Source: Naegleria gruberi
Lineage: Eukaryota
Assembly: GCA_000004985.1 (NCBI GenBank)
Contig: GG738860.1
Length of the DNA: 64,000 nt
Reading direction: 5' to 3' (one strand)
Shown: in pieces, positions 31,836 through 63,514 of the stretch
Layout: the number at the start of each line of letters is the position of its first letter
Numbering within the stretch: the first letter of the stretch is position 1
Notes under the pieces: model-generated
Database searches by the model: none
What the model was told of the DNA's origin: nothing
The model's input: the letters and a program-made list of their open reading frames with translations, nothing else
Translations under genes and position numbers: made by a program

Positions 31836-33029
31836 ATGAATTATCTCCTTCAGGGATTTTCAGAAAAATCTTCATCTACTAACCAATCAATAATGAAAAA
31901 CAAGTCAAGAAAGGGGTGGAGCAATGCACTGTTCCTCCTTAACTACTTTATCATCATGATGATAATTTTACAAATATCAACCAATTACTACTGTTTGGCC
32001 ATTCCGAATGACAAGAACAAAACCCCTACATGTAAGAATGGAAGGCTTATTACAAATACCACTACTCCTCAACAATTTGCCTCAACCAAATGTTCATGTT
32101 TTAAGGGATATTCGGGAAGTGATTGTAACATACCAGTTTGTTTTGGATTGAAGGCAAGTTCAAAATCTGTATGTGGTGGCAAAGGTAACTCCAAATGTAT
32201 TGCTCCAGATACATGCATTAAAATCAATGAAGCAACAATCATGAAGCGATTTCAATCCAATGCTAAAGAGGACAGTTCATGTTCCAATCGTGGTCAAATG
32301 AGTAATGGTCAATGCATATGTAGTGAGGGATTCTATGGAGAATCTTGCGAATATTCTAATTGTTATGATACAGCTAGCCAGCTCACTTGTAGTGGAAGAG
32401 GAGAATGCTCCTCTGATAATATTTGCACTTGTAGAGAGAATGATATGTTTGGCGATAGATGTCAATACACACTCCCAGATAAGATTTATCAAAATGATGT
32501 TTGTGGGTCATGTATCATTGTGGCTGGTGTCAGTGGAGATGCTATTCCATCGAAGTATTCACTCTTGAACAATCCTACTGGACTATTTGTGGATGAAACA
32601 ACTGGTTTCATCTTTTTCGCAGATCAAGGCAATGCAAAGGCAAGAGTTCTCACAAGGGATGATACTATCTATTCGATTGCCTCTGTTTCCACACCAACTA
32701 GTATAGCATTCGATAAGAAAACAAGAGATGTCTATATTGGTACTAGAAATGGACTATTCAAATTGAACAGCAAGAGAGAACTCTCTAAATTGAACAGCTT
32801 GTATTGTAGCAGTGTCATTGTTAATGGTCAGGGACATGTTGTGTTTACACAGGGACCATATAACAAGATTTCAAAACTTGTAAATGGTGTGCAAGTTGAG
32901 GTGGCAGGGGATAATGACGGCGAAGGAAAATATGATGGTGACAACAAAGTGGCAACGGATGCAAGTGTCAACAATCCAGCTTATTTGAGCTACCATGCTG
33001 ACTCTGATACAATTTACTTTATGGACAGA
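31836..33029 (+). CDS. N-terminal fragment of a receptor-like protein: signal peptide, tenascin-type EGF-like Cys repeats, start of an NHL-repeat beta-propeller; truncated by assembly gap. Probably the 5' part of the receptor kinase resuming at 43232
   Basis: Begins MNYLLQGF..., with a hydrophobic signal or anchor (WSNALFLLNYFIIMMIILQISTNYYCLA). EGF-like modules follow (CSCFKGYSGSDCNIPVCFG..., CICSEGFYGESCEYSNCYD...CTCRENDMFGDRCQ). NHL-like blades come next (LLNNPTGLFVDETTGFIFFADQGNAKARVL...NNPAYLSYHADSDTIYFMDR). The frame is then cut by the 50-N gap at 33030. Confidence 0.6.
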
Positions 33030-33079
33030 NNNNNNNNNNNNNNNNNNNNNNNNNNNNNNNNNNNNNNNNNNNNNNNNNN
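33030..33079. other. Assembly gap (50 N)
   Basis: A run of exactly 50 N separates the receptor gene fragment from the second 5S/tRNA unit. Confidence 1.
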
Positions 33080-33087
33080 AACTGAAT

Positions 33088-33206
33088 GGCTACGGCCATA
33101 TCACGATGAATGCACCTCATCCCGTCCGATTTGAGAAGTTAAGCATCGTCGAGCCACATCAGTACTGAGGTTGGAGACAACTTGGGAACCTGTGGTGCTG
33201 TAGTCT
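33088..33206 (+). rRNA. 5S ribosomal RNA gene (copy 2)
   Basis: Identical to 22982..23100 (offset 10106 bp). Confidence 0.85.
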
Positions 33207-33794: not shown

Positions 33795-34261
33795 TTTCAC
33801 ATGTTGTATCACCAGTAACAGTATTTGTAGTTGTTCAAACGGATTACCATAAAAGGAACCTTAGTGTTTCTTTTTAATATAATTATACTTACATATATGT
33901 ATACCTACTGAGAATGGATCCATACAATCGATTACTCCAACGAACTAAATTTTGAATCTGCTAATTGTCAACAAATGATATTGTTAAACAAAATACAAAC
34001 ACTATGAAATGCACAACTTCATTCTAAACATTGTATTAGAAAAATTGGAAATAGGAAAGAATCGGTAAAATTGTCTCATAGTGATTCTCTCTTGTTTATG
34101 GCCATAAATACTTTTTTGGACAGTTTCGTATGAAATTGGGTTTTGTAATATTTATTTTCTATGACATGTCATGCATAATTTCTTGTACTTGCCATCTCAA
34201 TGGCACACAAGGGTCACAACAAATTTTTTCTTCAAGAGGCACCANCTCCTTCTTGCTTGTT

Positions 34262-43200: not shown

Positions 43201-43231
43201 NNNNNNNNNNNNNNNNNNNNNNNNNNNNNNN
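34262..43231. other. Assembly gap (8970 N)
   Basis: Continuous N run. All giant ORFs reported across it (34130..43276, 34159..43266, 34171..43431, 34197..43394, 34200..45386, 34232..43288) are poly-X artefacts. Confidence 1.
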
Positions 43232-46200
43232 TACTGGAACAATTGCCAAAGTCTTTTCTGCTCCATACGGTGTTAAAAGCTTCCACAAACTTGAGAATGG
43301 TAATTTTATTTTCGCAGAGAAAAATTATCCTAGAATTGCCCTTTTCAAGACCAATAGCAGCAAGATTATCTACTTGGCTGGTCAATACGAACAAGGTTAC
43401 GATCCAATCGTTATTTCTGACAATGTGTTAGCAACCACAACAAGTGTGAATCATCCTCGATCACTCTATGTAAAGAATGGAGAGCTCTATTTTGCAGATA
43501 CCTACAACTCTCTCGTGAGAAAAATCACCCTCTCAACAGGAGTTCTCTCAACCATTGCTGGTAATGGAGGTGAGCGTTTTTATGGGGATGGTGGATTGGG
43601 AACGAGTGCTTCTTTGAACTATCCATATGGAATTCACTTACATACTGATGGTTCTATCTACATTGCCGATACTTACAATAGTAAGATTAGAAAGTTAGAC
43701 TCTTCCAAAAAGATTAGCTCAGTTGCTGGAAATGGATATTTGGGATATTCGGACAATACTCAACCATTGAGAGCTTCATTCAATTTGGCAGTAAGCGTTC
43801 TCATTAACAACGTAGGGGACATGTACATTTCAGATTATGCAAACAATGTAATTAGAAAGATGAGCTCCTCTGGTGCCATTACAACTATTGCTGGACAAGC
43901 AAAGATTTCTGGTTTTGCTGATAGTTTAAATGCAAAGACTGCTCTATTGAATGGTCCATTTGGATTATATTATCAGGAATCCACACAAACTCTCTTTTTT
44001 GCTGACAGTCTCAATGGTAGAATAAGAAAGCTAACAAAGAATGGAGCAATTGAAACAGTTCTTGCTTCAATTAACGATCCAAGAGAAATCTCATTCCACA
44101 CAACCCATGGTCACATGTACTTTACTTCTGGAGGTGACCAAACCATTAAGGTTCTATTCTCCAATGGTACTCTTTCTGTGCTCAACATTCCAAAAGATTA
44201 CTACATTGGTCTCCATGTTGATTCCACTAATGATTATCTCTATGCAAGTGGTTATACATACATTTATAGATTTTCCATTGCAGGAGGTAGTAGCATTGAT
44301 CACAATCAAACCGATCCAATCATCGATAACATTTCTAAGAATTGTACTAAGGGATGTGAAAAGGGTGAATGTGTGAATGGAACTTGCGTCTGTAAGGAAA
44401 ATTATGGAGGTGAAATTTGTGATAGGCCAATGTGTTTTGGAAAATTGAGCAATGAGAGTGGTGTGTGTAATACTCACGGAGTTTGTCTGCAACCAAACGT
44501 TTGCTACTGTTACGGAAATTGGGAGGCCGAAGAATGCACCCAATGTAAGAGTGGATTTACTGGTTCTAATTGCAGAACCTGTGCCGATGGTTTTGTTGGA
44601 GAATTGTGTAATATCCCTATTTGTTTCAACGTATTTGCTAATGAATCAAACGTTTGTTCTGGACATGGTTCTTGCAAATCTCCAAACAATTGTTCATGCT
44701 TTGGAAATTGGGAGGGAGAAAGTTGTCAATCTTGTAAGGAGGGATACACTGGCTCAGAATGTGACACTCCAGTTTGTTTCGGGTTCAGNNNNNNNNNNNN
44801 NNNNNNNNNNNNNNNNNNNNNNNNNNNNNNNNNNNNNNNNNNNNNNNNNNNNNNNNNNNNNNNNNNNNNNNNNNNNNNNNNNNNNNNNNNNNNNNNNNNN
44901 NNNNNNNNNNNNNNNNNNNNNNNNNNNNNNNNNNNNNNNNNNNNNNNNNNNNNNNNNNNNTGGGTTGGAGATTGTGTGATTCCTGTCAAGCTGGATACAG
45001 TGGTTCAAATTGTGATATTCCTGTTTGTTTTGGATCAAGCGTTGAAGGAGATGGTTCTTTGGTTTGCTCAGGGCACGGTAACTGTTCAGGACCAGATATG
45101 TGCACTTGTAACGAAAACTGGTCTGGAAATGATTGTTCCACTTGTAGAGAAGGTTATTATGGAGAAGACTGCTCCTCATGTACACCTGGATTCAGTGGTG
45201 AGAGATGTGACATTCCTTCATGCTTTGGTATTTCAGCAAATGCTAGTAATGTATGTTCTGGAAATGGTTATTGTTTCAGTCCAGATTTGTGCTCCTGCTT
45301 TGAGAATTGGAAGGGTGAAAGTTGTAATCAATGCAGTAGCGATTACATTGGTGAATTGTGTGATATTCCGTCCTGTTTTGGAGTGAATGGTAATGATAGA
45401 TCAGTTTGTTCTGGTCATGGCTCTTGTATTACCCCATCCAATTGTTCTTGTTTCAATAACTGGGAAGGAGCAATGTGTGAAAATTGTCCAACAGGTTTCT
45501 CTGGAGATGACTGCAAATCCTGTGACGAAAGTCACACTGGAGAGGGATGTGATGTTCCAATCTGTTACGGCCTTGCAGCTAATAATGAAAGTGTTTGCTC
45601 TGGAAATGGCAAGTGCATTGAGTCCTCTGTATGTGTTTGTTCTGGTTTTTGGACTGGAGCTAATTGTGATACTTGTCCAGAAAAGTATTCAGGATCGGCT
45701 TGTGATGTGCCAGTTTGTTATGGAGTAAGCGCTAACGATTCTATGGTTTGCTCTGGACATGGTTCTTGTGTTGCACCTTCTCAATGTTTTTGTGAAGGAA
45801 GATGGGCTGGAGAATTGTGTGATTCCTGCGTGGCTGGATATAATGGTTCAAATTGTGAAAATCCAATCTGCTTTGGAGAATTCAACACCTCTATTGTTTG
45901 TTCTGGTCATGGTTTGTGCTCAGCACTAGATGTTTGTGTGTGTAGCGAGCAATGGGCTGGAGAAACTTGTGGCAAATGTAATTCTGGATATTACGGAATA
46001 ACTTGTGAGCTTTCTTGTGATCCACAAATAGTGAAACCATCTCTCACAATCAAGCAAGGTTCAATAATTTCCTATGTGATTGGAACTTCTATTGCTTTGG
46101 AACCAGAATTGACAATTCCATTGTGCTATGCCGGTCATTTCAGCTCCATTAGCTATGGATATGCTTCTGATTTCTTTAACCAATCTCAACTGGTTCAGGT

Positions 46201-47305
46201 TGATAAATTCCTTGTCATTGGCGAATCAACCAAGAGCTCTGGAACTTTAATTTCTAACGAAGGTGAATATTCATTCAAGGTTATTGCTACACTTGGCAGG
46301 TTGGAAATTTCCACTTCCTTTGAATTTATTGTCAAGTCCAATTTGGCTTCGCTCACTCTTGATTTCAACATTCCAAATATGCTCACTCAATCCTTTGAAA
46401 AACCTTTGGAATTTGAAGTTAAAGCCTCTGATCCAAGCTTCCCTAGTGATTTAACTGAGGGTGATTTATCACTCAATTGTTGGAATCAAGATAATCAATT
46501 GGTAGAAAAGTTGGTTGACACTGTTTTCAATCATACTATTACAGTCTCAAAACAACTCAATCCAGGGCAATATGTTTGTGAAGCAACATTCAAGAAGGAT
46601 TCCAGAGTTATTACCAAGTCAATTCAGGTTGTCCTTGTTGATGTCTCTTCATCAAATGTACTCACTGTTACTCTTAAATTGGAAGGTCAAAATCCAACTT
46701 GGGTAAATCCAACAAAAGATTTGACCATATCAGCTGATATCAAAGAATCTATTGGTCCAAATGTTGTGTATGATTGGAAATCTCCATTCCAACCAATGGA
46801 TACAACTGTCTCGAATCAATTAGTTATTCCATCCAGTCAATTAGCTCTTGGAAAGAGGTATAACATTTCTCTGATTGTTACAGATGGAAGTAAGAAGGGA
46901 TTTGGATTTATTTCCTTCAAGACCTATAGTCCTCCTTCAATGGGATCATTCTCTGTTTCTCCTCTCTTTGGTTACTCTCTCACAACCAATTTCATGCTAT
47001 CTGGTGGTGTTGATTGGATTTCTTTCAATCAAGATGTCTTGACATTTACATTCATTTATAGAAGTGTAGGTTCTTTGGCATGGAAATCATTGGCTGAAAG
47101 TTCTGTTCAAACATCTCTCAATACTACTCTCCCTTCAGGAACATGGGAAACTTCAGTTTCAGTTTCCGATTCATTCTTATCATACACAATCTATGATAAA
47201 CCAGTCATAGTCCAGGTGAATACTACAGATTTAACTGTTGCTCAATTGAATTATGTTGCCTCTAATCCAATTACTCCATCAGTCATTTCTTCATTGATTA
47301 GTTAT
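43232..47305 (+). CDS. Ectodomain of a receptor-like kinase: NHL-repeat beta-propeller, array of ~13 tenascin-type EGF-like modules (interrupted by a 172-N gap), REJ/PKD-like beta-rich region; 5' end lies in the gap
   Basis: The open frame starts right after the gap. NHL blades: SLYVKNGELYFADTYNSLVRKI, GIHLHTDGSIYIADTYNSKIRKL, GDMYISDYANNVIRKM, GLYYQESTQTLFFADSLNGRIRKL. A periodic ~60-aa Cys module follows: CDxPxCFG...N.S.VCSG.G.C..P..C.C...W.G..C..C..G..G..C. The frame continues after the N-run (44789..44960) through a Cys-poor beta-rich region with many N-glycosylation sites, up to 47305. Confidence 0.65.
44789..44960. other. Assembly gap (172 N) inside the EGF-repeat array
   Basis: N run within tandem near-identical EGF-module coding repeats, a likely assembly break in a repeat. 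Confidence 1.
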
Positions 47306-47328
47306 GTGAGCAGTGGTTCTTCTTCCAA

Positions 47329-49434
47329 GTGAAAGAACAATCAAAACAAATTGTCATGGATAGTATCAAGACATCTTTGACAAAGGAGACTCTTGACACT
47401 ACATTGACAGTTTCTTCATTGAAATCTGCCATTTCAGTTATTGATTCGGTGAGCTCAGTTGTTAATGTCTTTAGGGATAGTGAAAGTACTGTTGTTTTGG
47501 AATACTTTTCGACAGTATTACACAAGACAATATCCAATGGAATTCAAATGTCTTCTGATGATATTCAGCTATGTTTGAACTCTGCTACAAAATTTGAAGA
47601 ATTCTTCTTTGGATCAAAGAGACGAACTTCTCGTGCAGTATCTGATTCACTTGAAAAGATCACTCAGATTTATAATATTCTCACAGAAGTTCAGTTCAGA
47701 AAACTAAAGGAAGGCGAAGGCCCTTCAAGAATTTCAAGTTTATCATACTACTCGTATTGCAAATTTATGAAATCTGATTCGATTGCTCCATATTCTGATA
47801 CCATCACTCAAACTTCTCTTCAATTCTCCTTGTTGCAAGCCCTTAATACTTCAAGAGATACTTTGGGCGTTCCAGAGAATTCAATGGTATGCCTCAAGAT
47901 GTATTATGTTCAATCTTGGAGAAGTGTCATGCCAAGCTCTTATACTGTTGAGTTATCATTCTTGGATATTAAGCGTGATTATGCCTCTGTTTCAATTTCT
48001 AGTAGCCACAATATTGCAAAATTGACCATTCCAAGAATGAATACTGGAGTTGATAAGAAACAAACATGTTACCTTGTTGATACAATGAAAAAGGAAGAAT
48101 GCTCAATTTCCTCTACTAGTCCTCTTCAAATAGTTATTCAAACCACCAAGACTGGAAAATTCTTTGTTGGTTACTATGAAGATGCTGCAACGCCAATTGT
48201 TAATCCTTCCAATGGTGACGTTTCCCTCAGTGCTTTTATTGTCATATTTGCCATCATTCTTCCAATATTAGTTTGTGGTTGTATTTGTGCAGCACTTGCT
48301 ATTGTTTGTGGTTGTGCCTGTAAGAAATGGAAAGCTAGAGCAGCATTGAACAGCCATTCAATTCTCCGAAGTACTCAATCATTACCACTTCCAAATGAAC
48401 GATTGGATGTAACATTTGATGATATCAATGTCTATAATACTGGAATTAATAGTAGTCCTTTATTGCCACTCTATATTCAACCAAGTGAACTTAAACTCTT
48501 GTCGAAACTGGGAAGTGGTGGATATGGAAGTGTTCATAAGGCCTATTGGAAAGATCAACTTGTTGCTGTCAAGTCTACTCCAGTTCCAGATAACTCCAAG
48601 CAAATTGAAATTCCAAGAGAAGCTGCACTCATGTATTCATTGAAACATCCAAATATTGTTGAATGTTACGGTATTTCTATTAAGGGAAAGGAACAATTAA
48701 TTGTTATGGAATATGTTAATGGAAATTTGAATCAATTGATTGGGGATTTGTGTAGAAAATCTATCAAGATGGATTTGGATGAAAAGATTGAAATTTTACT
48801 TCAAATTGCCACTGGTATGAATTACTTGCATCAATTGAATCCTTCCATTGTTCACAGAGATTTGACTCCTGCTAATGTGTTATTTGATCCAAGAACAAAA
48901 GCTTGTAAGATTTGTGATTTTGGTCTCAGTAAGCCGCTCAACTTGGAAAATACTGAAACCAAGAATAGGAGTACCATATATTTCGTTCCTAACGAGCTTA
49001 TTTGTTGTACAGATCCAAATTTAACCAATAATCCACGTGCCATTGATGTTTACAGTTTCTCCATTCTTGCTTGGCAAGTAATCTTTGAAGACCATCCTTA
49101 TCTGTATATCAATAAGGAAAAACTCTTCTCCAACTCTAAATTCAAACACACTCCATATGTTGATGTGACCAATGACAACTTATTGGCAAGAGTTGCTACT
49201 GGATTGAGACCTGTCATTCCATTCAATGCTGATACAGTTTCTAAATGGACTCAAAAATTCATCAAATCCAAGTATGATAATGATTTGATAGCACTCTCAA
49301 TGATTGCCATAGCTCAACTCGTTCAAAATTGTTGGAACTTGAATCCTCATTTGAGACCCAACTTCCAAGATGTTAGTGATACATTACAAACATGCAAAAA
49401 TACTCTCTCCAGTAACCATCCTCTCTTAGTTTAA
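47329..49434 (+). CDS. Membrane-proximal ectodomain, transmembrane helix and TKL-type protein kinase domain; almost certainly the 3' continuation of the receptor gene at 43232..47305, joined across a 1-nt frame discontinuity near 47300..47330
   Basis: The reading frame has no ATG and opens at 47302 (the ORF track assumed a GTG start). It contains ~300 aa of extracellular sequence, a TM helix (AFIVIFAIILPILVCGCICAALAIVCGCAC followed by KKWK), and a kinase domain: LGSGGYGSVHKAYWKDQLVAVKS, HRDLTPANVLF, DFGLSKP, the activation segment, and ILAWQV...HPY. The stop is at 49432..49434. Confidence 0.7.
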   Translation: MKEQSKQIVMDSIKTSLTKETLDTTLTVSSLKSAISVIDSVSSVVNVFRDSESTVVLEYFSTVLHKTISNGIQMSSDDIQLCLNSATKFEEFFFGSKRRTSRAVSDSLEKITQIYNILTEVQFRKLKEGEGPSRISSLSYYSYCKFMKSDSIAPYSDTITQTSLQFSLLQALNTSRDTLGVPENSMVCLKMYYVQSWRSVMPSSYTVELSFLDIKRDYASVSISSSHNIAKLTIPRMNTGVDKKQTCYLVDTMKKEECSISSTSPLQIVIQTTKTGKFFVGYYEDAATPIVNPSNGDVSLSAFIVIFAIILPILVCGCICAALAIVCGCACKKWKARAALNSHSILRSTQSLPLPNERLDVTFDDINVYNTGINSSPLLPLYIQPSELKLLSKLGSGGYGSVHKAYWKDQLVAVKSTPVPDNSKQIEIPREAALMYSLKHPNIVECYGISIKGKEQLIVMEYVNGNLNQLIGDLCRKSIKMDLDEKIEILLQIATGMNYLHQLNPSIVHRDLTPANVLFDPRTKACKICDFGLSKPLNLENTETKNRSTIYFVPNELICCTDPNLTNNPRAIDVYSFSILAWQVIFEDHPYLYINKEKLFSNSKFKHTPYVDVTNDNLLARVATGLRPVIPFNADTVSKWTQKFIKSKYDNDLIALSMIAIAQLVQNCWNLNPHLRPNFQDVSDTLQTCKNTLSSNHPLLV

Positions 49435-49632: not shown

Positions 49633-51190
49633 TTAAAGATTCAATGAGTCTCTTATTGCTTTGTTTTGCTCTTTTAAAACTTCAAGAGATCCATCCATTG
49701 ACAAGAGCTCTTCATCTACATCCTTTGTCTTTTCAATATCCTTCTTTACCATTTTGTGCATGTCACTAGCAAACATTTTGGATAATCCTGCAACAATACC
49801 CTTTGGAACAGAACCTTTCATATCCATGAAATCAAAAATGTAATATCTGGTCGAGTTTGTTGTTTGTCTCTCAATAACAACAGCTGTGTAGAGCGACACT
49901 CGAATAAAATCCTTCTTGATTGGTGAGTCATCGTGAGCTGAAGGCTTTGAAATAATTACAAATCTATCAAATTCATCCGTTTCCTCATTATATTTATCAG
50001 GTATGATGGTTCTAGCCATGACAATTTCTCTCTTAGTGAATGGGAACCCAATCTATTAGTTTTAAGTTTTACAAATAGTATTATACATAGTAAACTTAAT
50101 CACCCAACCAAATTGAATTTTGAAAACTTACATCCAACTGATGGTAAATAATAGTATTAGGATATTCAATTCCCTTTTCATGATTAATCTTTAAATATTC
50201 CAATTGGAATTTTCTCTTATAGAATGAGTTAATCTTCTTTTCAAATGATTTCTTAAAAAATAGATTGAAAATACTCTTGTGATCTCCACTCATCAATCCA
50301 GTAAAACAAATCACTGGTAGGGCTTCTTCACCTAAATTCATATAATAATTATTAACACTGGTAAGTGTTTTGGTTCCAGTCTTTTCATCTGCCACTTTCC
50401 ACCTGTTGCTATCGTTCAATGTTGATATTAATTCTTTCAAAATTTCATAATCCTTTGGAGTGACATAGATTGAGGTATTATCAATTAGGGGTCTATCTTT
50501 ATCCTTGATGGGTGTACTCTTTGCTATTTCCTCTATAAAGCTATCACTATCACTCGAATCCTGTGAAATGCTACTGTCTGATCTATCCAATGCTTTTTTG
50601 GTCCCTAATTGTTCAAGTAATTGTGACGGAGAGTCCTTGTATTCTGGCTTTTTAGCTTCCTTCTTTAAAAAGGATTTAAATTGTTCAGATTCGGTAAATC
50701 TTGGAAAATTATCTTGTTTCAATTCGGAAAAGATGACGTTCTGAGCTTTTTGGAACAAGTCCGATGGACATTCTATTAATTCAACTGCTTTTCCTTCATT
50801 AAATTCTTGAGTTAAACTCCAAATCTTTAGAATATCTTTCCTAATGGTCATTGACAAGTTTAATTCATGTTTGGCACTCACAACAATAAAAGTATTCATA
50901 ATTTCCACAGCCATATCAAATCTATTCTTGTCCAATCTTGTTTTTTGATACTTTTCAACCATTTCATAAAACATGAAAGGATCTTCATTCAAATTATCCT
51001 TTAAAAACTTTCGGAAACAATCACGAGCACTTTCATGATCAAAAACTGCTTCAATATTGAATTTATATCGTTGAATGAGAGAATCGTCCAAACCAACTGT
51101 TGGTTTCTGCGGTTGGCCTGACAGGTTATTCAACATTTTTTTCTTATTAGTTTCGGATGAGATAACTATTGTCTTCCAACACAATACCAC
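49633..51190 (-). CDS. RGS-domain protein with C-terminal START-like domain, 2 exons (paralog B, inverted relative to 20838..22362)
   Basis: Exon 1 is 51190..50132 (ends ...YHQLD at a GTAAGT donor). The intron 50131..50053 has a TAG acceptor. Exon 2 is 50052..49633 (IGFPFTKREIVMARTIIPDKY...). The RGS core YKFNIEAVFDHESARDCFRKFLKDNLNEDPFMFYEMVEKYQKTRLDKNRFDMAVEIMNTFIVVSAKHELNLSMTIR is identical in protein to paralog A. Exon-2 START-like sequence: YYIFDFMDMKGSVPKGIVAGLSKMFASDMHKMVKK. Confidence 0.65.
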
Positions 51191-54471: not shown

Positions 54472-56361
54472 TTGATGGACAATGGTATTTTGAGATTAAC
54501 ATTGATGTTCAACAATCATAAAAAAATGTCAGAACAAGACACACCATCTTTCTCCAACAATCCGTTTGGTGGTTTTTTTTCTTTCACACCCAATAACAAT
54601 ACAACAACAACAACAAATAATCCATTTGCTGCTTTTTTAAATACTTCTTTGGAAGAAGCCATTTCATCAAGACCAATATTTGGTGGCGGTACATCAGACA
54701 GTTCTTCTTCATCATTGGTTGATGTTGTTGATTCCCAACCAAAACAGGAAGAAACTAAATATTCAATCGACTCAGTGATTTCTGTATTTTCGGAGAGTAT
54801 TTTGGGGATTACAGAAAGTAAAGGTCGTCATCATCAAGTTTACTTGTTAGATATTTCTGATGTTTCAAATATTAGCAAGGTTATCATTTCAGAATTTGAC
54901 ATCAACGTCAAGGGTCAAGAACAAGTCAATTGTGGTTTTAAGAATGTTTCATTAGATTTTGAAAGTTTAGTCTTGAATAAGATTGAAAATGATTCTAAAA
55001 AAGTGAGAGGTGTATGTAAATTATTCAAGAGAGAATACCCTGTAATTGAAAGTGCAATTATTTCAGATTGGAAACCTCATTCAATGTCTTTAAATAATGT
55101 AATTAGAACTCAGGACTATACAGTTATTGGATTTGTTGATCAATTAGCTGTGGCAACAAAATTTGGATGTAAAAATCCATTCTTAGAAAATAGTTCCACA
55201 GAATGTCTTTTCACAGAAGAATTAATATTGGATTCTAATTCAGTAGATCAGTATGCTGCCATTGATACAGATAGCCCTCTAGTTGTACTTCTCCCTTGTG
55301 AAAATTGCAAGGAGAGAAAATATTCATTGAATGGTTTATGTTTCAATGGATCCATCTTCCTATTCGATTTGAAAGAAAGAAAATTTACAAAATCTGTGAA
55401 ATTTACTGATGAATCATTGGGAAAGCAATTTATTTTAAAGAGATTTATGGATAATCCAGAGTTTATTCCCTATTTAGATGGAAATAGATTGAGAAGTTTC
55501 GTTCTCTCTGAACAGAAACTTTATGAATTTTATTGGAATGTCCAGTATGAGGAATTGGTGTGTGTTGAACATTGCATGTGGGTTAGTGGTCAAATTTCAC
55601 AAGTTCGTATCACAGATGAAGAGTTTGGATTCATTATCTCCACATGGGATAAAAAAATAGTTTTATACAAACCAGGTCAAGTGGGAAAACCTTATAATGA
55701 AGGACACGTTAGAATTATAGAAAAGGAAAAAGTGCTTACTCCATCCATTTGGTGCTCAAAGAGTAAGGTTCTCTTTGAAAGGAGCACATATTACAATTAT
55801 GTTCCACTCAATTTTGAAAACCACAATCTTACATTAGAAGAAATCACCAAATCAGAGGTAAAGAATCCTTTTCAACTTTTCAATATAGCAGACTATGCTA
55901 AAGAATTTGAATTTTCATGCTATGATGAATTAATTGATAATTGTTTGAGTATTAAGAAAATCAAGGTTGGCAGAAAACTCAAAGGCCTTAGATCAGAATT
56001 TATTTACAAAGTCGATAACAAAGAATTAGCTGTCCTAGAATTGGAAATTATTGCTGGACTGACCTCTAATCAATCAACCATCATGGTAGAAACAACCTCC
56101 ATTAGACAAAGTGAAAATTTCAAATTATTGGAATTGAAAGATTTTACCAATTTTCTTGGAGCTCCAATTATTTACAAACGTAAAGATGAGAAGAAATTTC
56201 AGTTTACTTCTTTCATTGATTTAAAAGATGGAAAGAAATCTTCTGAAACTGTAATTTTTGGAGATATTAATGAAGGAAGTGGATCCACTTCAACATCATC
56301 AACACCAATATCCAATTTGGAATTTATTGGCCTTTTAGCACCAAAACAAACCAGGAATTAA
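54472..56361 (+). CDS. Hypothetical 629-aa protein with N-terminal NPF/FG-like motifs (NNPFGGFF, NNPFAAF)
   Basis: Long single ORF with coding-like composition throughout and no recognised domain. The likely start is the internal MSEQDTPSF. The NPF motifs suggest EH-domain-binding or adaptor roles. Confidence 0.5.
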   Translation: MMDNGILRLTLMFNNHKKMSEQDTPSFSNNPFGGFFSFTPNNNTTTTTNNPFAAFLNTSLEEAISSRPIFGGGTSDSSSSSLVDVVDSQPKQEETKYSIDSVISVFSESILGITESKGRHHQVYLLDISDVSNISKVIISEFDINVKGQEQVNCGFKNVSLDFESLVLNKIENDSKKVRGVCKLFKREYPVIESAIISDWKPHSMSLNNVIRTQDYTVIGFVDQLAVATKFGCKNPFLENSSTECLFTEELILDSNSVDQYAAIDTDSPLVVLLPCENCKERKYSLNGLCFNGSIFLFDLKERKFTKSVKFTDESLGKQFILKRFMDNPEFIPYLDGNRLRSFVLSEQKLYEFYWNVQYEELVCVEHCMWVSGQISQVRITDEEFGFIISTWDKKIVLYKPGQVGKPYNEGHVRIIEKEKVLTPSIWCSKSKVLFERSTYYNYVPLNFENHNLTLEEITKSEVKNPFQLFNIADYAKEFEFSCYDELIDNCLSIKKIKVGRKLKGLRSEFIYKVDNKELAVLELEIIAGLTSNQSTIMVETTSIRQSENFKLLELKDFTNFLGAPIIYKRKDEKKFQFTSFIDLKDGKKSSETVIFGDINEGSGSTSTSSTPISNLEFIGLLAPKQTRN

Positions 56362-56415: not shown

Positions 56416-57522
56416 CTAATTAATATCAATTGATTTTAATTGTTTCATTTCAATTATGAATTTGGCTACTTCATCACCAATTTGATTTCTACCAATATCA
56501 AGTGATGTTAATTGTTTCATTTCAATTATGAACTTGGCTCCTTCATCACCAATACAATTGTTACTAATATTAAGTGATGTTAATTGTTTCATTTCACTTA
56601 TGAACTTGGCTCCTTCAGCATAAATTTGATTGTCAGAAATATCAAGTGATGTTAATTGTTTCATTTCACTTATGAATTTGGCTCCTTCAGCATAAATTTG
56701 ATTGTTATTAATACCAAGTGATTTTAATTGTTTCATTTCACTTATGAACTTGGCTCCTTCCACACCAATACGATTGTTATTGACAGTAAGTGATGTTAAT
56801 TGTTTCATGTCACTTATGAATTTGGCTACTTCATCACCAATGTGATTTCTACCAATATCAAGTGATGTTAATTGTTTCATTTCACTTATTGGTTTGATTC
56901 CGTCTATACCAATCCAATCGTTATAAATATTAAGTGATTTTAATTGCTTCAGTTCACTTATGAATTTGGCTCCTTTATCATATATTCGATTTCCACCAAT
57001 ATCAAGTGATGTTAATTGTTTCATTTCACTTATTGATTTGGCTCCTTCAGCATAAATTAGATTGTAAGAAATATCAAGTGATGTTAATTGTTTCATCTTA
57101 GTCATTTCATTTATGAATTTAGGTGTTTCTTCAGAGTTAAACAACATTTCAGAAAATTTAACATCAACAATACTACTCATAAATCGACTATTCATGAATA
57201 ATTTAATTCTATATCCAGTAAATTTTTTTTTAAATTTAATAACCAGTTTGGAACGTTCCTTGATCACATTAAAGAATTGTTTTGAAATTAAAACGCAATT
57301 TTTTAAAATAAACCACGAATCATCAATCATGGAAATTATTTCAAAACAAATATCATCTGAAAATATTTCTTGTTCTGGGAGTGCAACAAGTTTTTTCTTT
57401 TTTGCCTTCTCCTCCATGTCATTATTGTCTAGCTCCTCCGAAATTAATATTTTTCTAATCCTGCTTCGTTTGCTCATTTTTTTTGTAAAATTTCTAAAGC
57501 GCTGTTTTTTGCTTGATATCAA
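56416..57522 (-). CDS. F-box-like / leucine-rich-repeat protein (RNI-type 24-residue LRRs)
   Basis: N-terminus with F-box-like segment: IFSDDICFEIISMIDDSWFILKNCVLISKQFFNVI. About ten tandem 24-aa repeats follow: MKQLTSLDI..N.I..EGAKFISE. Confidence 0.6.
   Translation of the reverse strand: MISSKKQRFRNFTKKMSKRSRIRKILISEELDNNDMEEKAKKKKLVALPEQEIFSDDICFEIISMIDDSWFILKNCVLISKQFFNVIKERSKLVIKFKKKFTGYRIKLFMNSRFMSSIVDVKFSEMLFNSEETPKFINEMTKMKQLTSLDISYNLIYAEGAKSISEMKQLTSLDIGGNRIYDKGAKFISELKQLKSLNIYNDWIGIDGIKPISEMKQLTSLDIGRNHIGDEVAKFISDMKQLTSLTVNNNRIGVEGAKFISEMKQLKSLGINNNQIYAEGAKFISEMKQLTSLDISDNQIYAEGAKFISEMKQLTSLNISNNCIGDEGAKFIIEMKQLTSLDIGRNQIGDEVAKFIIEMKQLKSIDIN
56430..57110. repeat. Intragenic tandem repeat, 72-nt period, ~9.5 copies (encodes the LRR array)
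   Basis: The unit aagtgatgttaattgtttcatttcacttatgaa(c/t)ttggctccttca... recurs every 72 nt with >85% nucleotide identity between units. This indicates recent repeat expansion or concerted evolution. Confidence 0.85.
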
Positions 57523-57627: not shown

Positions 57628-58452
57628 GTGCAAAAAAAAATGGCGCGAACCAAACAAACCAAAAGAAAAACATGCCCAAACACTGAAGAAGAACGAATCG
57701 AAAAGATTAAACAACGTAAAATCCTTCTTGGTCAAGAAAATCACTCATGGAAAAGAACCTCTCCTTCCTTCATTCTCTACCCGACCGATATTTCCATCCG
57801 CTGCACGATTACCAACTCTGAAACTGATCCGAATTCTAATCAATTATTATTATTATTGGGAAATAAGTTTGTAGAACATGTATGCTCTGATTCAACTTGT
57901 CATTGCGATCTTCCACGAATTAATTGGCAAAAAACTGGATTTTATACACAATTTTTTAGTGATGTTTTGGTTAACCCTAGAAATGATTATACGTTCCTAG
58001 GTGATGGGGAAGCTAGTGAAGAGTATTCAGAAAGGGCAATGAATATTCTTGAAAAAGTGTTAAATAATGTTCAAGCTTATGAAATGAATACGAAACTGAT
58101 CGAATGTGAAAGAAAAAAAGAAAGTATCAACAGTATTACCATTGAATATTCAACATGTGGATCAAAGTGTTATTACAAATCAAATTGTGATTATGAATAT
58201 GAATTTGTAGTATTACTAGTGAGCGAGGATGAACATCTTGCATTTGGACATATTGGATGTCATGCTTTCTATTTATTACCTGGATTGGAATATTTAAATT
58301 CAGATGGAAGTTCACCCAATGTCTGCTCTGATTCCATTATAACCTATGATGAGGAGAATGATATGTACCATCCAAATATTATTCCACTTTCTAAGGTTTT
58401 GAAAAAATCGAAAGAATTTTTAAGAAATGTTTTAGATGACAGATATCACTAG
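57628..58452 (+). CDS. Hypothetical Cys-containing protein; N-terminus (from second Met) MARTKQTKRK resembles the histone H3 tail
   Basis: 274-aa ORF with several Cys/His (CSDSTCHCD, CGSKCYYKSNCD, GHIGCH). No family was recognised. Confidence 0.45.
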   Translation: MQKKMARTKQTKRKTCPNTEEERIEKIKQRKILLGQENHSWKRTSPSFILYPTDISIRCTITNSETDPNSNQLLLLLGNKFVEHVCSDSTCHCDLPRINWQKTGFYTQFFSDVLVNPRNDYTFLGDGEASEEYSERAMNILEKVLNNVQAYEMNTKLIECERKKESINSITIEYSTCGSKCYYKSNCDYEYEFVVLLVSEDEHLAFGHIGCHAFYLLPGLEYLNSDGSSPNVCSDSIITYDEENDMYHPNIIPLSKVLKKSKEFLRNVLDDRYH

Positions 58453-58598: not shown

Positions 58599-59591
58599 AT
58601 GAATGAACTCCATTCACAATTAAAACAATTAGAAAAATCAGAAGAAATTCTTTCGGAAAATCCACACCGTTTCACTCTCTTTCCGATTCAATATCCTAAA
58701 CTGTGGGAAATTTATAAAAAGAGATTGGCATCTTCCATTTGGAGTGTTGAACAATTTGATCAAATTATTAGAAATGACATTTCTAAATTATCGGAAATTT
58801 GCAATTCTGATCACAGTTTCATCAAGATTATTCTTGCGTTTCTTGTTGCAAATTGTAAACAGAAAACAAATCTATGGGGAGCATTCAAAGATATTCAAAT
58901 ACTAGAAGCAAAACATTTCCACGGCTTTCGGCTGGCCATGAAGAATATTCATTACGAAATGTATTGTAATCTATTCGAAATTTTAACAGAAGAAACAGAA
59001 AGAAGTGAACTAATAGAAAAAATGATCAATTCAACCATGAAGAAATCTCAATATACAAAGAAATGGCTCAATTCTGACAATTTATTTTCTGAAAGATTGA
59101 TAGGTTTAGTTTGCATTGAACAGATTTTCCTTTCTGCAAGTTTCTTTTCCATTTTTTGGCTAAAGAAGCGTGGATTAATGTCAGCTTTAACAATTTCCAA
59201 CGATTTGATTTTCAGAGATGAAGAATTTCATTCCAATTTTTTATATTCTCTATATTCGAATTTGAAACATTCTAAACTTCCTCAAACTCTCGTTCATTCA
59301 CTTGTCAAGGAAGCAGTTGACATTGAAAAGGAATTTATTACAAGTTTACCCACTGAATTGATTGAATTGGATAGAAACTCCATGTATCAGTATGTGGAAG
59401 TAGTTTCAGATAACATTCTAATTTCATTTGGTTATGAAAAACTCTTCCATACTGAAAATCAATGTTCATGGATTCAAGACATGTTAATGAACAAGTCGGG
59501 TTTCTTCTGGAAAATTGGATTAGAATCCTATTCTTCCATTCCACATTTCCCAACCATTAACAATGAATTAAAATTGGATGAAGATTTTTAA
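58599..59591 (+). CDS. Ribonucleotide reductase small-subunit (R2)-like protein with substituted di-iron ligands (Rnr4-like, probably non-catalytic)
   Basis: Collinear with eukaryotic RNR R2. [18 protein letters not shown] matches [38 protein letters not shown] matches [69 protein letters not shown] matches [49 protein letters not shown]. A C-terminal LDEDF tail is present. The ENIH Glu is replaced by Lys, and the Asp of the AASDG motif is absent (LVANCK). Confidence 0.8.
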   Translation: [330 protein letters not shown]

Positions 59592-60198: not shown

Positions 60199-60999
60199 TT
60201 GAGCCATCTTGAATCCATTGTAACTTTAAAAAAAATGGCAAACATGATTACTGACATTCCCAATGATGTTCTATTAGACATTCTCTCCGATTTTGACCTA
60301 AAAGATTTATTCAATCTCTCACTCTGTAATCAATTCTTTTTAAAATTAATATTCAATCAGACATTGAAAGATTTCTCCAAGTTTAATCTTGTTAAAAATC
60401 TATCCGAAAAGCCAATACTCTCCCGATACGAATTTAGATATACGAAAGATGAGAAGGATTTTGAATTTTGTAAAACTCAGAATAGAATTTGGAGAATTCA
60501 TTTGATTTCCTACTTTCCCAAATTTAAAAGTGATTTGAATGTGAAAAATTGGCTCCATGTATTGAGGTGGGTAGTTTACAAAGTTTACAATAATTCCAAT
60601 ATTGAAACTCTTACATTTTTTATTTTAATGAAATATTGATTATTTATCATGAAAAGGAGGAGAATTCTCCATTTGAAATTGTATGATCCATCCAAATTAC
60701 CCCTCACTCCAAATACAAATAGTAAATCATTCGAGGTGGAGAAGCCAATCTTTGTACATAGTAACAATGACTCGAAATTTATTGAAGGTTGTGAATGGAT
60801 TTATAAGTGTCCACTCAAATATGAAGAATTATCATTTTTGAAGGAGAATTCAAGATTATGTAAGGAATGTTCCAAAGTTGTTTATTTTGTGAATAATATT
60901 GAGGATTTTACGGAAAAGATTGAGGAAGGAAAGTGTGTAGCATATCAAGCAAAGGTTAAAACGAATTATGTTATTCACATGGGAAGAAAATGTTTTTAA
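60199..60999 (+). CDS. F-box protein with Cys-rich C-terminal region; putative single intron
   Basis: F-box: IPNDVLLDILSDFDLKDLFNLSLCNQFF. Joining the ORFs 60199..60639 and 60649..60999 needs an intron 60567..60656 (GTGGGT...AAAAG, phase 2), giving ...NWLHVLR-RRILHLKLYD.... The splice is plausible but weak. Confidence 0.4.
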
Positions 61000-61770: not shown

Positions 61771-63514
61771 ATGAAAAAAACCGTTGTAAATAATAAGGCA
61801 GACTCATCGGCAACAAAACCAACATTTCAACCGGAGACTTCACATAAGAAGGCCCTTTCAATTTATGGAGGCAGTGCAAAGACGGTAGTAGCTCCCACTG
61901 CTGTGTCTACCTCAAAATCAAATTCTCAGCAAGCAAAAAAAGTTCCGATAATTGTTGATGCTTCTTCTGGTAGTAGTAGTAAATCACAAACAAAAGTTTC
62001 AATTAAGACGGCAACTGTGTCGTCTCAAAAGGATGCCTCTGTTACTCAATCGAAAGAAGAGAAATTAAAGGAATTGTTTGCTCAATTACCTCAAGAAATT
62101 GTGTTGCAAGTTTTGGATTATTATGTTGGTTCGGGATTTAAAGCTTGTTTTCCAAGATTTGAAAAATTGGCAAATACTAATTTTAAGGAAGCATTTGAAT
62201 ACGATTCTTTGAGTTTTGATGAATCAATGTTTTACAAACAATATTTTGGAAAGTTCAAAAACAGAGGAGACACAAACCCAAAACCTATTTTCTGGAGGTC
62301 AGCAAGTGAAAATCTTGTAGATTTAAATAGAATTTCTAAGGAATTCCATTACTTGTTATCATTGCAAATTTAGGTCGAGAACCTATTGATATTTATTACA
62401 AAAAGTTGTGTACTTTATATTTTGCAATTAGAAAGAAAAGACCAAGTGATCTGGAGCAAATAGAGACCAGAAGATTGAATTATATTGCTAATATTTTCGA
62501 GAAGGATAAAGGCTTATGTGAAAAGGTTAAAATTCTTGATTTTTACGGATTGGAAACGTTTGAAGGGACTATTGATTTTGCAGCAAATAATTTTCCAAAT
62601 ATAGAAATACTAACACTAGGGTTTCAACAAGGATTACTAAAGGTTATGAATTTCGTAGAACAATAGATATGTACCAAATTGTTTCTGCAATCTGCAAAAT
62701 GAGCAAATTGAAGGAGTTCAAATTTAAGGGAAGGAACTTTTACTTTGAGGGCATTGAAGAAATCTCAAAGTCAACACCTCTTATTCAGAAATTTTCACTC
62801 ATAGGCTCTAGATCAATTCTTGAATGTGGTAAATCTATTGGAAATTGGAAACATTTAAGAGAAATAGAAGGAGCAGTCCATTCCTACTTTGATAATAGTT
62901 CCATTGCAACTCCACCAACTCCACAAGAACAAACAAATTTCTTCACAGTCATTAATGAAATTAATTTAGAAAAGTTAGAGCTGCTGAATGATGATATTTC
63001 CAGTGCCAAGTTCCATAAACTGCCATCTTCACTCATAACTCTTAACTTGGAAAGAACAAGAGTTAGTTCTAAATTATTTGAAGCAATTTCAGAGTTGGAA
63101 AATCTCAAGATTCTTATTCTTGACAGCACATCTGGGTTCGAAAGTGAAGATTTCCAACATCTCAATAGTTTGCCAAACCTTGAAGAGTTATCACTTAATA
63201 AGAGTTCTCATTGTGGAGATGTTGGGTTGAAACACATCTCTGCCGTTAAAAGTTTGAAAAGAGTTTTCTTGAACAAGTGTGAGATACATGATGAAGGAGG
63301 AATCTCACTTTCCAAATTGAGTAATCTTGAAATTATTGACCTTCAATATTCTGATATTACAGAGAAAACAATTAACAATATTGTTCAAAACTGTAAGAAA
63401 ATCAAAAAGATTTGCGTGTATAAATGTCAGAAAATCTCTAAAAATAAGATAGCTGACCTTCCCAACATAAAACAGATTCTCTCAGAAAATCCAATCAACA
63501 GAGAGTATTATTAA
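61771..63514 (+). CDS. F-box/LRR-repeat (FBXL-like) protein; three consecutive ORF segments (61771..62373, 62406..62666, 62669..63514) that are probably exons of one gene with short unresolved introns or frame errors
   Basis: Segment 1 has a Ser/Thr/Lys-rich N-terminus and an F-box (LFAQLPQEIVLQVLDYYV). Segments 2 and 3 contain cysteine-containing LRRs typical of FBXL proteins (LNKSSHCGDVGLKHISAVKSLKRVFLNKCEIHDEGGISL...NCKKIKKICVYKCQKI). The junctions lack clean GT..AG sites, so the structure is uncertain. Confidence 0.45.

What the first reader, a model, noticed from the sequence alone, without database searches (positions are those of the whole stretch)
58599..59591. R2-like ribonucleotide reductase subunit with substituted di-iron ligands (Rnr4-like, probably non-catalytic)
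The protein is collinear with class Ia RNR R2 along its length, including the R1-binding C-terminal LDxDF. In the ENIHSEMY block the iron-ligand Glu is Lys ([10 protein letters not shown]). The upstream Asp ligand (AASDG) is replaced in LVANCKQ. The radical Tyr and the distal Glu/His (RDEEFH) are retained. Loss of a subset of metal ligands is exactly what characterises yeast Rnr4 (Y4), a folding and stabilising partner in R2 heterodimers. Such a subunit has not been well characterised outside fungi, so an amoebozoan example would be notable.
Basis: partly seen in the sequence, partly recalled or inferred. Interest (0 to 1): 0.6.

Follow-up and report, generated by a model that had tools for sequence, protein, structure and literature searches.

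The report
Naegleria R2 paralogue with disabled iron site
This is a real, transcribed gene of the amoeboflagellate Naegleria gruberi for a highly diverged copy of the small subunit of ribonucleotide reductase that has lost two of its six metal-binding residues, so it probably cannot make the enzyme's radical itself and more likely serves as a helper or regulator of the normal enzyme.

Summary
Window 58599-59591 (+) is an intact 330-codon ORF. It is 100% identical to N. gruberi XP_002678788 (NAEGRDRAFT_32493), listed as "NrdB2" by Lundin et al. 2010. It is a full-length R2 (Pfam E=2e-64; the model superposes on human and mouse R2).

- **Ligands lost:** the bridging Glu is Lys115. The Asp is Asn85 or Cys86, depending on where a one-residue gap is placed.
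- **Ligands and key residues kept:** His118, Glu174, Glu208, His211, the radical Tyr122, Trp48, Asp207 and the C-terminal LDEDF.
- **Divergence:** 51 of 125 near-invariant R2 columns are changed (yeast Rnr4: 43). No protein among representatives of about 15 billion is more than 47% identical.
- **Selection:** neutral drift to this divergence predicts about 14 stop codons, and replacements are conservative.
- **Expression:** public RNA-seq shows 4-7x induction after mitotic release and about 7x repression in flagellates.
- **Partners:** the genome also holds NrdB1, NrdA and a class II RNR.

The Rnr4-like reading is plausible but untested. The gene is not an Rnr4 orthologue and loses different ligands. 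The organism is a heterolobosean, not an amoebozoan. Non-fungal non-canonical R2s (apicomplexan PfR4) are already known. Interest is moderate.

The parts
58599..59591 (+). Single-exon gene for N. gruberi NrdB2 (NAEGRDRAFT_32493, XP_002678788.1, D2VB17_NAEGR), 330 aa plus stop
   Evidence: ORF; 100% identity to P0001; accessions; same 993-bp length as scaffold_16:474599-475591 in the RNA-seq table
58740..58742 (+). Trp48, equivalent to E. coli W48 / yeast Y2 W108 on the radical-transfer path; retained
   Evidence: Invariant column W48; column scan
58851..58856 (+). Asn85-Cys86 (aat tgt): the place of the Asp metal ligand (AASDG becomes VAN-CK), next to a one-residue deletion; no carboxylate under either alignment
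   Evidence: HMMER aligns Cys86 with Asp; MAFFT aligns Asn85 with Asp; hmmalign puts a gap there
58941..58943 (+). Lys115 (aag) in place of the bridging Glu ligand (ENIHSE becomes KNIHYE); one transition away from GAG
   Evidence: the column is 100% Glu in the 119 other hits
58950..58964 (+). His118 (ligand, kept), Tyr119 (Ser to Tyr, a bulky residue beside the site) and Tyr122 (radical-site Tyr, kept)
59118..59123 (+). Glu174 (ligand, kept) followed by Gln175 in place of the invariant Gly
59217..59231 (+). Asp207-Glu208-Glu209-Phe210-His211: Asp and the Glu/His ligands kept, with the conserved Gly replaced by Glu209
59529..59531 (+). Tyr311 in the disordered tail: candidate equivalent of the C-terminal radical-transfer Tyr, shifted 1-2 residues from the family register
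   Evidence: the family Tyr column holds Glu309; pLDDT below 50 for residues 300-326
59568..59588 (+). C-terminal LKLDEDF, the R1-docking heptapeptide (family consensus F-x-LDEDF; the first Phe is Leu here)
   Evidence: role of the tail as stated in PMC3824934

Best explanation
The gene encodes NrdB2, a lineage-restricted, fast-evolved but selectively maintained paralogue of the class Ia ribonucleotide reductase small subunit of Naegleria gruberi. Shown: it keeps the R2 fold and the R1-docking C-terminus. Its dinuclear metal site lacks the terminal Asp carboxylate and has a Lys in place of the carboxylate that bridges the two metals. Bulky or polar residues (Tyr119, Gln175, Glu209, Lys87) have replaced small ones around the site. 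It is transcribed with a proliferation-linked profile. Inferred: without the bridging Glu, and with a cationic Lys in the cavity, it cannot assemble the diferric cluster that oxidises Tyr122, so it is a non-catalytic subunit. Most likely it acts within the class Ia system. It may pair with the canonical NrdB1 as a beta-prime-type partner (functionally like yeast Rnr4 or Plasmodium PfR4), or it may dock on NrdA through its tail and so modulate holoenzyme assembly or activity around cell division. The Lys probably compensates charge for the remaining Glu174 and Glu208 in a metal-free four-helix bundle, as Arg does in Rnr4.
For: R2 family and fold: Pfam E=2e-64; AlphaFold pLDDT 81, pTM 0.81; Foldseek top hits are human, mouse and Plasmodium R2, target-normalised TM-score 0.89-0.91, rmsd about 1.9 A. 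Ligand losses. Divergence like a known non-catalytic subunit: 51 of 125 columns that are >=95% conserved are changed, against 43 in Rnr4 and 3 in a canonical yeast-type R2. Identity to canonical R2s averages 40%, while canonical pairs average 69%. Changes lean towards the ligand neighbourhoods (18 of 32 against 33 of 93; odds ratio 2.3, p=0.06). Maintained by selection: neutral drift to the same identity gave a mean of 14 stops, a minimum of 5, and none of 2000 runs stop-free. Replacements at conserved columns average BLOSUM62 -0.08 against a null of -1.39 +/- 0.215 (0 of 20000). Expression: in Data S2 of bioRxiv 10.1101/2024.01.08.573270, jgi_32493 is flagged up_in_mitosis TRUE. Its log2FC is +2.1, +2.6, +2.8, +2.1 at 10-40 min after release, back to 0 by 60 min, and -2.8 at 80 min of differentiation. 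This resembles mcm5 in the same table. Canonical partners exist: NrdA (JGI 58675) and NrdB1 (JGI 56348, short branch 0.16 against 0.37 for NrdB2). The genomic setting is ordinary eukaryotic genes, with no viral hallmark genes.
Against: No interaction, metal-content or activity data exist. NrdB1's sequence could not be retrieved, so its intact site is inferred only from its short branch in a published tree. No orthologue was found: the next best hit is 46% identical by BLASTP in the word-indexed search and 40% in the exhaustive representative search. An essential, Rnr4-like role would usually be conserved among relatives. The radical Tyr, Trp48, Asp207 and four ligands are retained, which a purely structural partner does not need. 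The first Phe of the R1-binding heptapeptide is Leu and the tail Tyr is out of register, so R1 docking and radical transfer may be weakened. The RNA-seq induction follows heat-shock release and is not proven to be S-phase specific. NrdB1 and NrdA profiles were not available for comparison because the stored table is truncated.
Confidence: 0.55

Rival explanations
1. Tail-mediated regulator or competitor. NrdB2 forms inactive homodimers that occupy the R2-binding cleft of NrdA through LKLDEDF and so damp or time class Ia activity. It would not chaperone NrdB1.
For: The C-terminal docking motif is kept while the metal site is disabled. Transcription is sharply pulsed after mitotic release and repressed in differentiation. 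A class II RNR in the same genome (PMC3605638) could make such tuning tolerable.
Against: There is no precedent for an R2-fold inhibitor among the papers read. Phe to Leu at the first heptapeptide position may lower R1 affinity. Induction together with replication genes suggests a positive role rather than a negative one.
Confidence: 0.18
2. Functionless, slowly decaying duplicate that is still transcribed (an expressed relic).
For: Extreme divergence: 51 of 125 conserved columns are changed. It has no detectable orthologue anywhere. Catalytic ligands are lost. The genome has redundancy through NrdB1 and class II NrdJ.
Against: The ORF is intact although about 14 stops are expected under neutrality (0 of 2000 simulations). 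Replacements are strongly conservative. The only length differences are a few in-frame single-residue gaps and short insertions. Expression is significantly regulated.
Confidence: 0.15
3. Still catalytic with an unconventional cofactor. Candidates are a mononuclear or heterobimetallic site built from His118, Glu174, Glu208, His211 and Cys86, or a metal-free modified-Tyr radical stabilised by the Lys, by analogy with bacterial class Ie R2.
For: Tyr122, Trp48, Asp207, a tail Tyr and the R1-docking motif are all retained. Class Ie shows that an R2 with substituted carboxylates and a Lys in the site can be active (PMC11846895). Expression is proliferation-linked.
Against: The class Ie signature is different: all three Glu are replaced and the Asp is kept (QSK or VPK). 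Class Ie is derived from class Ib and needs NrdI. Here the Asp and only one Glu are replaced in a eukaryote-type class Ia scaffold. A canonical NrdB1 exists, so there is no need for this route. Divergence extends to many non-site conserved residues.
Confidence: 0.07
4. Neofunctionalised ferritin-like protein acting outside ribonucleotide reduction.
For: The site is heavily remodelled. R2-fold proteins with other chemistry exist, such as R2lox.
Against: It keeps the R1-docking C-terminal motif, which R2lox-type proteins lack. It matches no R2lox model, whereas the canonical P0002 weakly does. Its best structural matches are eukaryotic R2s.
Confidence: 0.05

Closest known systems
Saccharomyces cerevisiae Rnr4 (Y4, beta-prime; PDB 1jk0_B, 1sms)
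   Same: An R2-fold paralogue that coexists with a canonical R2. It lacks part of the di-iron ligand set, with a cationic residue placed in the site. It keeps the C-terminal R1-binding motif. It has a comparable loss of family-invariant residues (43 against 51 of 125).
   Different: It is not orthologous: 30% identity, and NgNrdB2 is closer to canonical R2s than to Rnr4. The overlap of changed columns is no more than chance (21 against 17.5 expected, p=0.13). The ligands lost differ: Rnr4 has His to Tyr, Glu to Arg and His to Tyr while keeping Asp and the first Glu, whereas NgNrdB2 loses Asp and the first Glu and keeps the rest. Rnr4's heterodimer is solved (PDB 1jk0, the Y2Y4 heterodimer), and the paper read says it may play a chaperone role. 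Nothing has been tested for NgNrdB2.
Apicomplexan R2_e2 / Plasmodium falciparum PfR4 (Munro et al. 2013, PMC3824934)
   Same: A non-fungal, long-branch, non-canonical second R2 with a conserved C-terminal docking motif. It is presumed unable to supply the radical. PfR4 is reported to bind PfR2 and R1.
   Different: In that paper's comparison R2_e2 has Asp at the sixth ligand position and the other five ligand positions are identical across clades with few exceptions. It lacks the radical Tyr in most genera and the C-terminal Tyr. NgNrdB2 shows the reverse pattern. R2_e2 is conserved across a phylum, whereas NgNrdB2 has no detected orthologue.
Canonical eukaryotic class Ia R2 (RRM2, Rnr2, NrdB)
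   Same: Same fold, length, helix order, radical Tyr, Trp/Asp radical-path residues and LDEDF tail.
   Different: Two of six metal ligands are missing. 41% of near-invariant columns are changed. Identity is 38-47%, where canonical pairs share 53-99%.
Bacterial class Ie metal-free R2 (NrdF QSK/VPK variants)
   Same: Carboxylate ligands are replaced and a Lys sits in the former metal site beside a retained Tyr.
   Different: In class Ie the three Glu are replaced and the Asp is kept. Class Ie is derived from class Ib, is encoded with NrdI and depends on it. NgNrdB2 keeps two Glu, loses the Asp, and is a eukaryote-type class Ia protein.
Uncharacterised degenerate R2 paralogues found here (Chlorella sorokiniana PRW20806, C. 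ohadii KAI7841796, Parachlorella kessleri GAB4819391, a Nonionella stella EukProt entry, metagenomic P0161)
   Same: Eukaryote-type R2s with substituted ligand and/or radical positions. P0161 also has Lys at the first Glu.
   Different: They have different substitution sets (for example the Chlorella pattern Glu to Gln, Tyr to Val, Glu to Ser, His to Asn). Identity to NgNrdB2 is only 32-37%, so they are independent events.

Membership tests
Ribonucleotide reductase small subunit (Pfam PF00268, ferritin-like R2 fold) | Full-length match to the family profile and the R2 helical fold | tested here: met
   E=2.1e-64, profile positions 1-280 of 281; Foldseek target-normalised TM-score 0.89-0.91 to human and mouse R2
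Catalytic class Ia R2 | Six metal ligands (Asp, Glu, His, Glu, Glu, His) | tested here: not met
   Four of six. Asp is replaced by Asn85 or Cys86, and the first Glu by Lys115. 216 of the 269 sequences scanned (including the query) show the full pattern at the ten positions scored. Of the rest, 41 differ only by gaps or by what look like broken alignments in over-long predicted proteins, and 12, including the query, carry substitutions at ligand or radical-path positions
Catalytic class Ia R2 | Radical-harbouring Tyr, with Trp and Asp of the radical-transfer path | tested here: met
   Tyr122, Trp48 and Asp207 are retained
Catalytic class Ia R2 | Conserved Tyr in the C-terminal tail, in register | tested here: inconclusive
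   The family column holds Glu309. Tyr311 lies 1-2 residues downstream in a disordered segment
Catalytic class Ia R2 | C-terminal R1-binding peptide | tested here: met
   LKLDEDF against consensus F-x-LDEDF; the first Phe is Leu. Binding itself is not testable here
Rnr4-type beta-prime subunit (functional class) | Incomplete metal site in an otherwise intact R2 | tested here: met
Rnr4-type beta-prime subunit (functional class) | A canonical R2 and an R1 encoded in the same genome | tested here: inconclusive
   Lundin 2010 Additional file 2 lists NrdA 58675, NrdB1 56348 and NrdB2 32493. NrdB1's sequence could not be retrieved to check its ligands, and none lies in this window
Rnr4-type beta-prime subunit (functional class) | Forms a heterodimer with the canonical R2 and supports its cofactor assembly | not testable with these tools
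   Needs co-expression or pull-down, or at least a multimer structure prediction
Fungal Rnr4 (orthologous family) | Sequence closer to Rnr4 than to canonical R2s, with the Rnr4 substitution set (His to Tyr, Glu to Arg, His to Tyr) | tested here: not met
   E=4e-46 to 1jk0_B against about 1e-60 to canonical R2s; 30% identity; a different set of ligands lost
Class Ie R2 (metal-free, DOPA radical) | QSK or VPK replacement of the three Glu ligands, with the Asp kept | tested here: not met
   Only the first Glu is replaced (by Lys), Glu174 and Glu208 are kept, and the Asp is lost
Class Ie R2 (metal-free, DOPA radical) | Dependence on NrdI | not tested
   The rest of the N. gruberi genome was not available to search for NrdI
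Class Ic R2 / apicomplexan R2_e2 | Radical Tyr replaced (by Phe, Leu, Ile or Val) with the ligands kept | tested here: not met
   Tyr122 is retained and ligands are lost

The most novel reading that the evidence does not exclude
NrdB2 is an active eukaryotic R2 that generates or holds a radical without a canonical dinuclear cluster. It would use Lys115 and Cys86 or Asn85 with the remaining His/Glu ligands. Candidates are a mononuclear or mixed-metal site, or a metal-free modified Tyr as in bacterial class Ie. This could let Naegleria make dNTPs under iron limitation. The retained Tyr122, Trp48, Asp207, tail Tyr, docking motif and division-linked expression do not exclude this.
Probability: 0.06. 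Interest if true: 0.85.

Novelty: new variant of a known kind. Interest (0 to 1): 0.36.

Why it matters
If NrdB2 works as a non-catalytic partner, Heterolobosea would be a further eukaryotic lineage, after budding yeasts and Apicomplexa, to have evolved a dead or altered second small subunit on its own. It would have done so by removing a different half of the metal site. That would suggest beta-prime-type pseudo-subunits are a recurrent answer to assembling or regulating class Ia RNR.

The scan also turned up similar degenerate R2s in Chlorella-type green algae and a foraminifer, so the phenomenon may be wider than is recognised. Practically, the gene is annotated only as "predicted protein", and this work gives it an identity and a testable role. 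The value is limited: the gene is already catalogued as NrdB2, it appears to be restricted to N. gruberi, and its function remains inferred.

Tried and rejected
- **Viral or horizontally acquired insert:** rejected as unsupported. Neighbours within about 15 kb and across the rest of the window are ordinary eukaryotic genes. No relative was found in IMG/VR. The closest protein, P0002, lies on a 41% GC metagenome contig and is itself an ordinary R2, 60-69% identical to giant-virus R2s, which is uninformative.
- **Orthologues carrying the same substitutions:** none found, either in the word-indexed search of 5.8 billion proteins or in the exhaustive phmmer search of 1.84 billion representatives.
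- **P0003 as a possible heterolobosean R2:** rejected, because its contig is 42-47% GC.
- **Retrieving the N. gruberi NrdB1 sequence:** not possible. No tool holds the genome, and a ranked search would bury it among thousands of canonical R2s, so I ran no further search on it.
- **NrdB1 and NrdA expression for comparison:** the stored Data S2 is cut near jgi_39xxx and the PMC copy has no supplements. No published version with the full table was found.
- **Locus tags in the literature:** no hits. The Velle 2022 supplements contain no entry.
- **Inspecting metal-site geometry in the AlphaFold model:** coordinates are not exposed, so the Asn85/Cys86 ambiguity stays open.
- **Convergence with Rnr4 at the same columns:** not significant (p=0.13).
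- **NCBIfam:** only sub-threshold matches (46 bits against 178 bits for a canonical R2). These are bacterial models, so the result shows erosion of the family signature but does not help classification.
Full report
**1. What is in the sequence**

Window 58599..59591 (+) is an uninterrupted ATG-to-TAA reading frame of 330 codons. A TAA lies immediately upstream in frame. The product matches Pfam PF00268 (ribonucleotide reductase small chain) over essentially the whole profile (residues 24-287, E=2.1e-64). It also matches solved eukaryotic R2 structures at E about 1e-60 (Plasmodium, yeast Rnr2, mouse, human). An AlphaFold2 model built on 46 sequences has mean pLDDT 81 and pTM 0.81, with only the C-terminal tail (residues 300-326) disordered.

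**2. Identity of the gene and organism**

The protein is 100% identical to a Naegleria gruberi "predicted protein". The accessions are EFC46044.1, XP_002678788.1 and UniProt D2VB17, locus tag NAEGRDRAFT_32493. N. gruberi belongs to Heterolobosea within Discoba, not to Amoebozoa.

JGI protein 32493 is listed as "N_gruberi_NrdB2" in Additional file 2 of Lundin et al. 2010 (PMC3019208). The same file lists NrdB1 (JGI 56348) and NrdA (JGI 58675). In that paper's BIONJ tree NrdB2 sits on a long branch (0.367) at the base of the eukaryote/virus R2 clade. NrdB1 has a short branch (0.162) among ordinary eukaryotic R2s, and only NrdB1 was carried into the refined ML tree. N. gruberi also has a monomeric class II RNR (PMC3605638). 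I could not retrieve NrdB1's sequence, so its intact metal site is inferred and not shown.

**3. The ligand positions**

- Every residue-level alignment that covers the motif puts Lys115 on the first, metal-bridging Glu of the ENIH motif. These are HMMER pairwise alignments to three crystal-structure sequences, MAFFT in two modes and hmmalign to a canonical profile.
- That column is 100% Glu in the 119 other hits.
- The codon is AAG, one transition away from GAG.
- The Asp ligand region AASDGIV reads VAN-CKQ, with a one-residue deletion. HMMER pairs the Asp with Cys86, MAFFT pairs it with Asn85, and hmmalign leaves a gap. Under any placement the carboxylate is gone.
- His118, Glu174, Glu208 and His211 are kept. 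So are the radical-site Tyr122 and the radical-path residues Trp48 and Asp207.
- Around the site, small conserved residues have become large or charged: Ser to Tyr119, Gly to Gln175, Gly to Glu209, and Gly/Ile to Cys86/Lys87.
- The tail ends in LKLDEDF against the consensus F-x-LDEDF.
- The tail Tyr used for radical transfer is 1-2 residues out of register, GLESYSS against VGEYQKA.

**4. How unusual the protein is**

- Of 125 alignment columns that are at least 95% conserved in 119 R2 homologues, NgNrdB2 changes 51. Yeast Rnr4 changes 43, and a canonical yeast-type R2 changes 3. I verified the Rnr4 sequence as 100% identical to PDB 1jk0_B.
- In the first (MAFFT auto) alignment, before Rnr4 was added, the count for NgNrdB2 was 52 and no other hit exceeded 17.
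- Identity to canonical R2s is 38-47%, with a mean of 40%. Canonical pairs in the same set average 69%.
- Changed columns are somewhat concentrated within four residues of the ligands: 18 of 32 against 33 of 93 elsewhere (odds ratio 2.3, p=0.06).
- Against bacterial NCBIfam R2 models it scores 46 bits, where a canonical eukaryote-type R2 scores 178 bits.
- An exhaustive phmmer search of 1.84 billion cluster representatives, standing for about 15 billion proteins, found nothing closer than 40% identity.
- The word-indexed search found a best hit at 46% identity by BLASTP (47.5% in the MAFFT alignment), and that hit has a canonical site. The gene therefore has no detectable orthologue.

**5. Is it a dead gene?**

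Three results argue that it is not.

- I simulated neutral nucleotide drift, at the window's base composition, from a canonical consensus down to the observed 43.8% identity. The simulations produced on average 14 in-frame stops, never fewer than 5, and no stop-free outcome in 2000 runs. The real ORF has none, and its only length differences from the family are a few in-frame single-residue gaps and short insertions.
- Replacements at conserved columns are far more conservative than random draws: mean BLOSUM62 -0.08 against -1.39 +/- 0.215, exceeded in 0 of 20000 draws.
- Public RNA-seq of synchronised N. gruberi includes a row for jgi_32493 at scaffold_16:474599-475591 (+), which is 993 bp, the same length as this ORF (bioRxiv 10.1101/2024.01.08.573270, Data S2). 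The row is flagged up_in_mitosis TRUE. Its log2 fold-changes are +2.09, +2.56, +2.76 and +2.14 at 10-40 min after release from the synchronising heat shock. They return to about 0 at 60-80 min and decline to -2.81 by 80 min of differentiation into non-dividing flagellates. Inclusion in a cluster required statistical significance and a change greater than 2-fold. The replication gene mcm5 shows a similar pulse in the same table.

The gene is thus transcribed and regulated with the division programme.

**6. Context**

The neighbours are ordinary eukaryotic genes:

- EGF/REJ receptor-like proteins
- protein kinases
- RGS proteins
- a class 3 lipase
- a leucine-rich-repeat protein
- F-box proteins
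- a cyclophilin-RRM protein
- a TPR protein

There is no second RNR gene in the window and no viral hallmark gene. No relative was found in viral contigs.

**7. Mechanism**

Shown: an R2 fold with a docking tail, a metal site missing the terminal Asp and the bridging Glu, and a Lys inserted in the site. Also shown: purifying selection on the fold, and division-linked transcription.

Inferred from established R2 chemistry: both lost residues bind iron site 1, and the Glu bridges both metals. A diferric-oxo cluster able to oxidise Tyr122 should therefore not form, and the subunit should not be able to generate a radical on its own. The Lys is positioned to neutralise the remaining Glu174 and Glu208 in a metal-free bundle, analogous to the Arg that replaces a Glu in Rnr4.

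Given a canonical NrdB1 and NrdA in the genome, the best-supported role is a non-catalytic component of the class Ia system. It may be a beta-prime partner of NrdB1, or a protein that binds R1 through its tail.

My estimates:

| Reading | Probability |
|---|---|
| Unable to form the canonical cofactor | about 0.8 |
| Non-catalytic role within the RNR system | about 0.55 |
| — of which beta-prime partner | about 0.35 |
| — of which tail-mediated regulator | about 0.2 |
| Functionless relic | about 0.15 |
| Unconventional active cofactor | about 0.06 |
| Non-RNR function | about 0.05 |

**8. Comparison with known systems**

- **Rnr4** is the nearest functional analogue but not a relative. Identity is 30%, and E=4e-46 against about 1e-60 for canonical R2s. 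The overlap of changed columns is at chance level. The ligand losses are complementary: Rnr4 keeps Asp and the first Glu and loses His, Glu and His.
- **Apicomplexan R2_e2/PfR4** shows that non-canonical second R2s are already described outside fungi. That clade has Asp at the sixth ligand position, with the other five ligand positions conserved, and loses the Tyr residues instead.
- **Bacterial class Ie R2** shares a Lys in a de-metallated site. However, it replaces all three Glu, keeps the Asp, derives from class Ib and needs NrdI.

**9. Verdict**

The gene is an independently evolved variant of a known kind of thing, a ligand-deficient R2 paralogue. It has been catalogued since 2010 as NrdB2, but I found no discussion of its metal site in the papers searched. 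Interest is moderate.

Noticed in passing
proteins P0221/P0271/P0272 (Chlorella sorokiniana PRW20806.1, C. ohadii KAI7841796.1), P0244 (Parachlorella kessleri GAB4819391.1), P0241 (Nonionella stella, EukProt): Other eukaryote-type R2 paralogues have degenerate sites. The trebouxiophyte proteins have Glu to Gln, radical Tyr to Val or Leu, and the last His to Asn; the Chlorella cluster representative also has the third-ligand Glu replaced by Ser. The foraminifer protein has Asp to Asn and Glu to Ala. Ligand-deficient second R2s may be scattered widely among protists and algae.
   Followed up: partly
protein P0161 (JGI metagenome, 482 aa) and Logan-only proteins P0199, P0265, P0247, P0263, P0208, P0197: P0161 also has Lys at the first Glu ligand but keeps the Asp. 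P0199 and P0265 have Asp to Asn plus Lys at the last Glu. The source organisms are unknown, and identity to the Naegleria protein is only 32-37%.
   Followed up: partly
window 33030-33079, 34262-43231, 44789-44960: These are runs of N (assembly gaps), the largest about 9 kb. The very long 'ORFs' listed across 34130-45386 are artefacts of these runs. The EGF/REJ receptor-like gene at about 44963-47332 is probably truncated by the gap.
   Followed up: partly
window 56416-57522 (-): This is a 368-aa protein made almost entirely of about 24-residue leucine-rich repeats (MKQLTSLDIxxNxIxxEGAKFISE; Pfam LRR_6, E=2e-34), directly upstream of the region. F-box and F-box/LRR ORFs lie at 60199-60639 and 62669-63514.
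   Followed up: no
window 57628-58452 (+), 54472-56361 (+), 24252-28610 (+), 4225-6288 (-), 8036-9271 (-): These are long ORFs (274 to 1452 aa) with no Pfam match. The 274-aa ORF ends only 146 bp upstream of the R2-like gene on the same strand.
   Followed up: no
window 20838-21884 (+) and 50096-51190 (-); 10903-13287 (+) and 47329-49434 (+): There are two RGS-domain genes and two protein-kinase genes, one of each on either side of the assembly gap. EGF/teneurin-like ORFs lie at 31836-33134 and 44963-47332. This may be a local segmental duplication or a gene-family cluster.
   Followed up: no
locus L001 (JGI metagenome 3300002220 contig, 4553 bp, 41% GC): The closest homologue of the Naegleria protein (P0002, 46%, canonical site) sits on a gene-dense contig next to a GmrSD_N-domain protein. 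Its organism is unknown, and it is 60-69% identical to many giant-virus R2s.
   Followed up: partly
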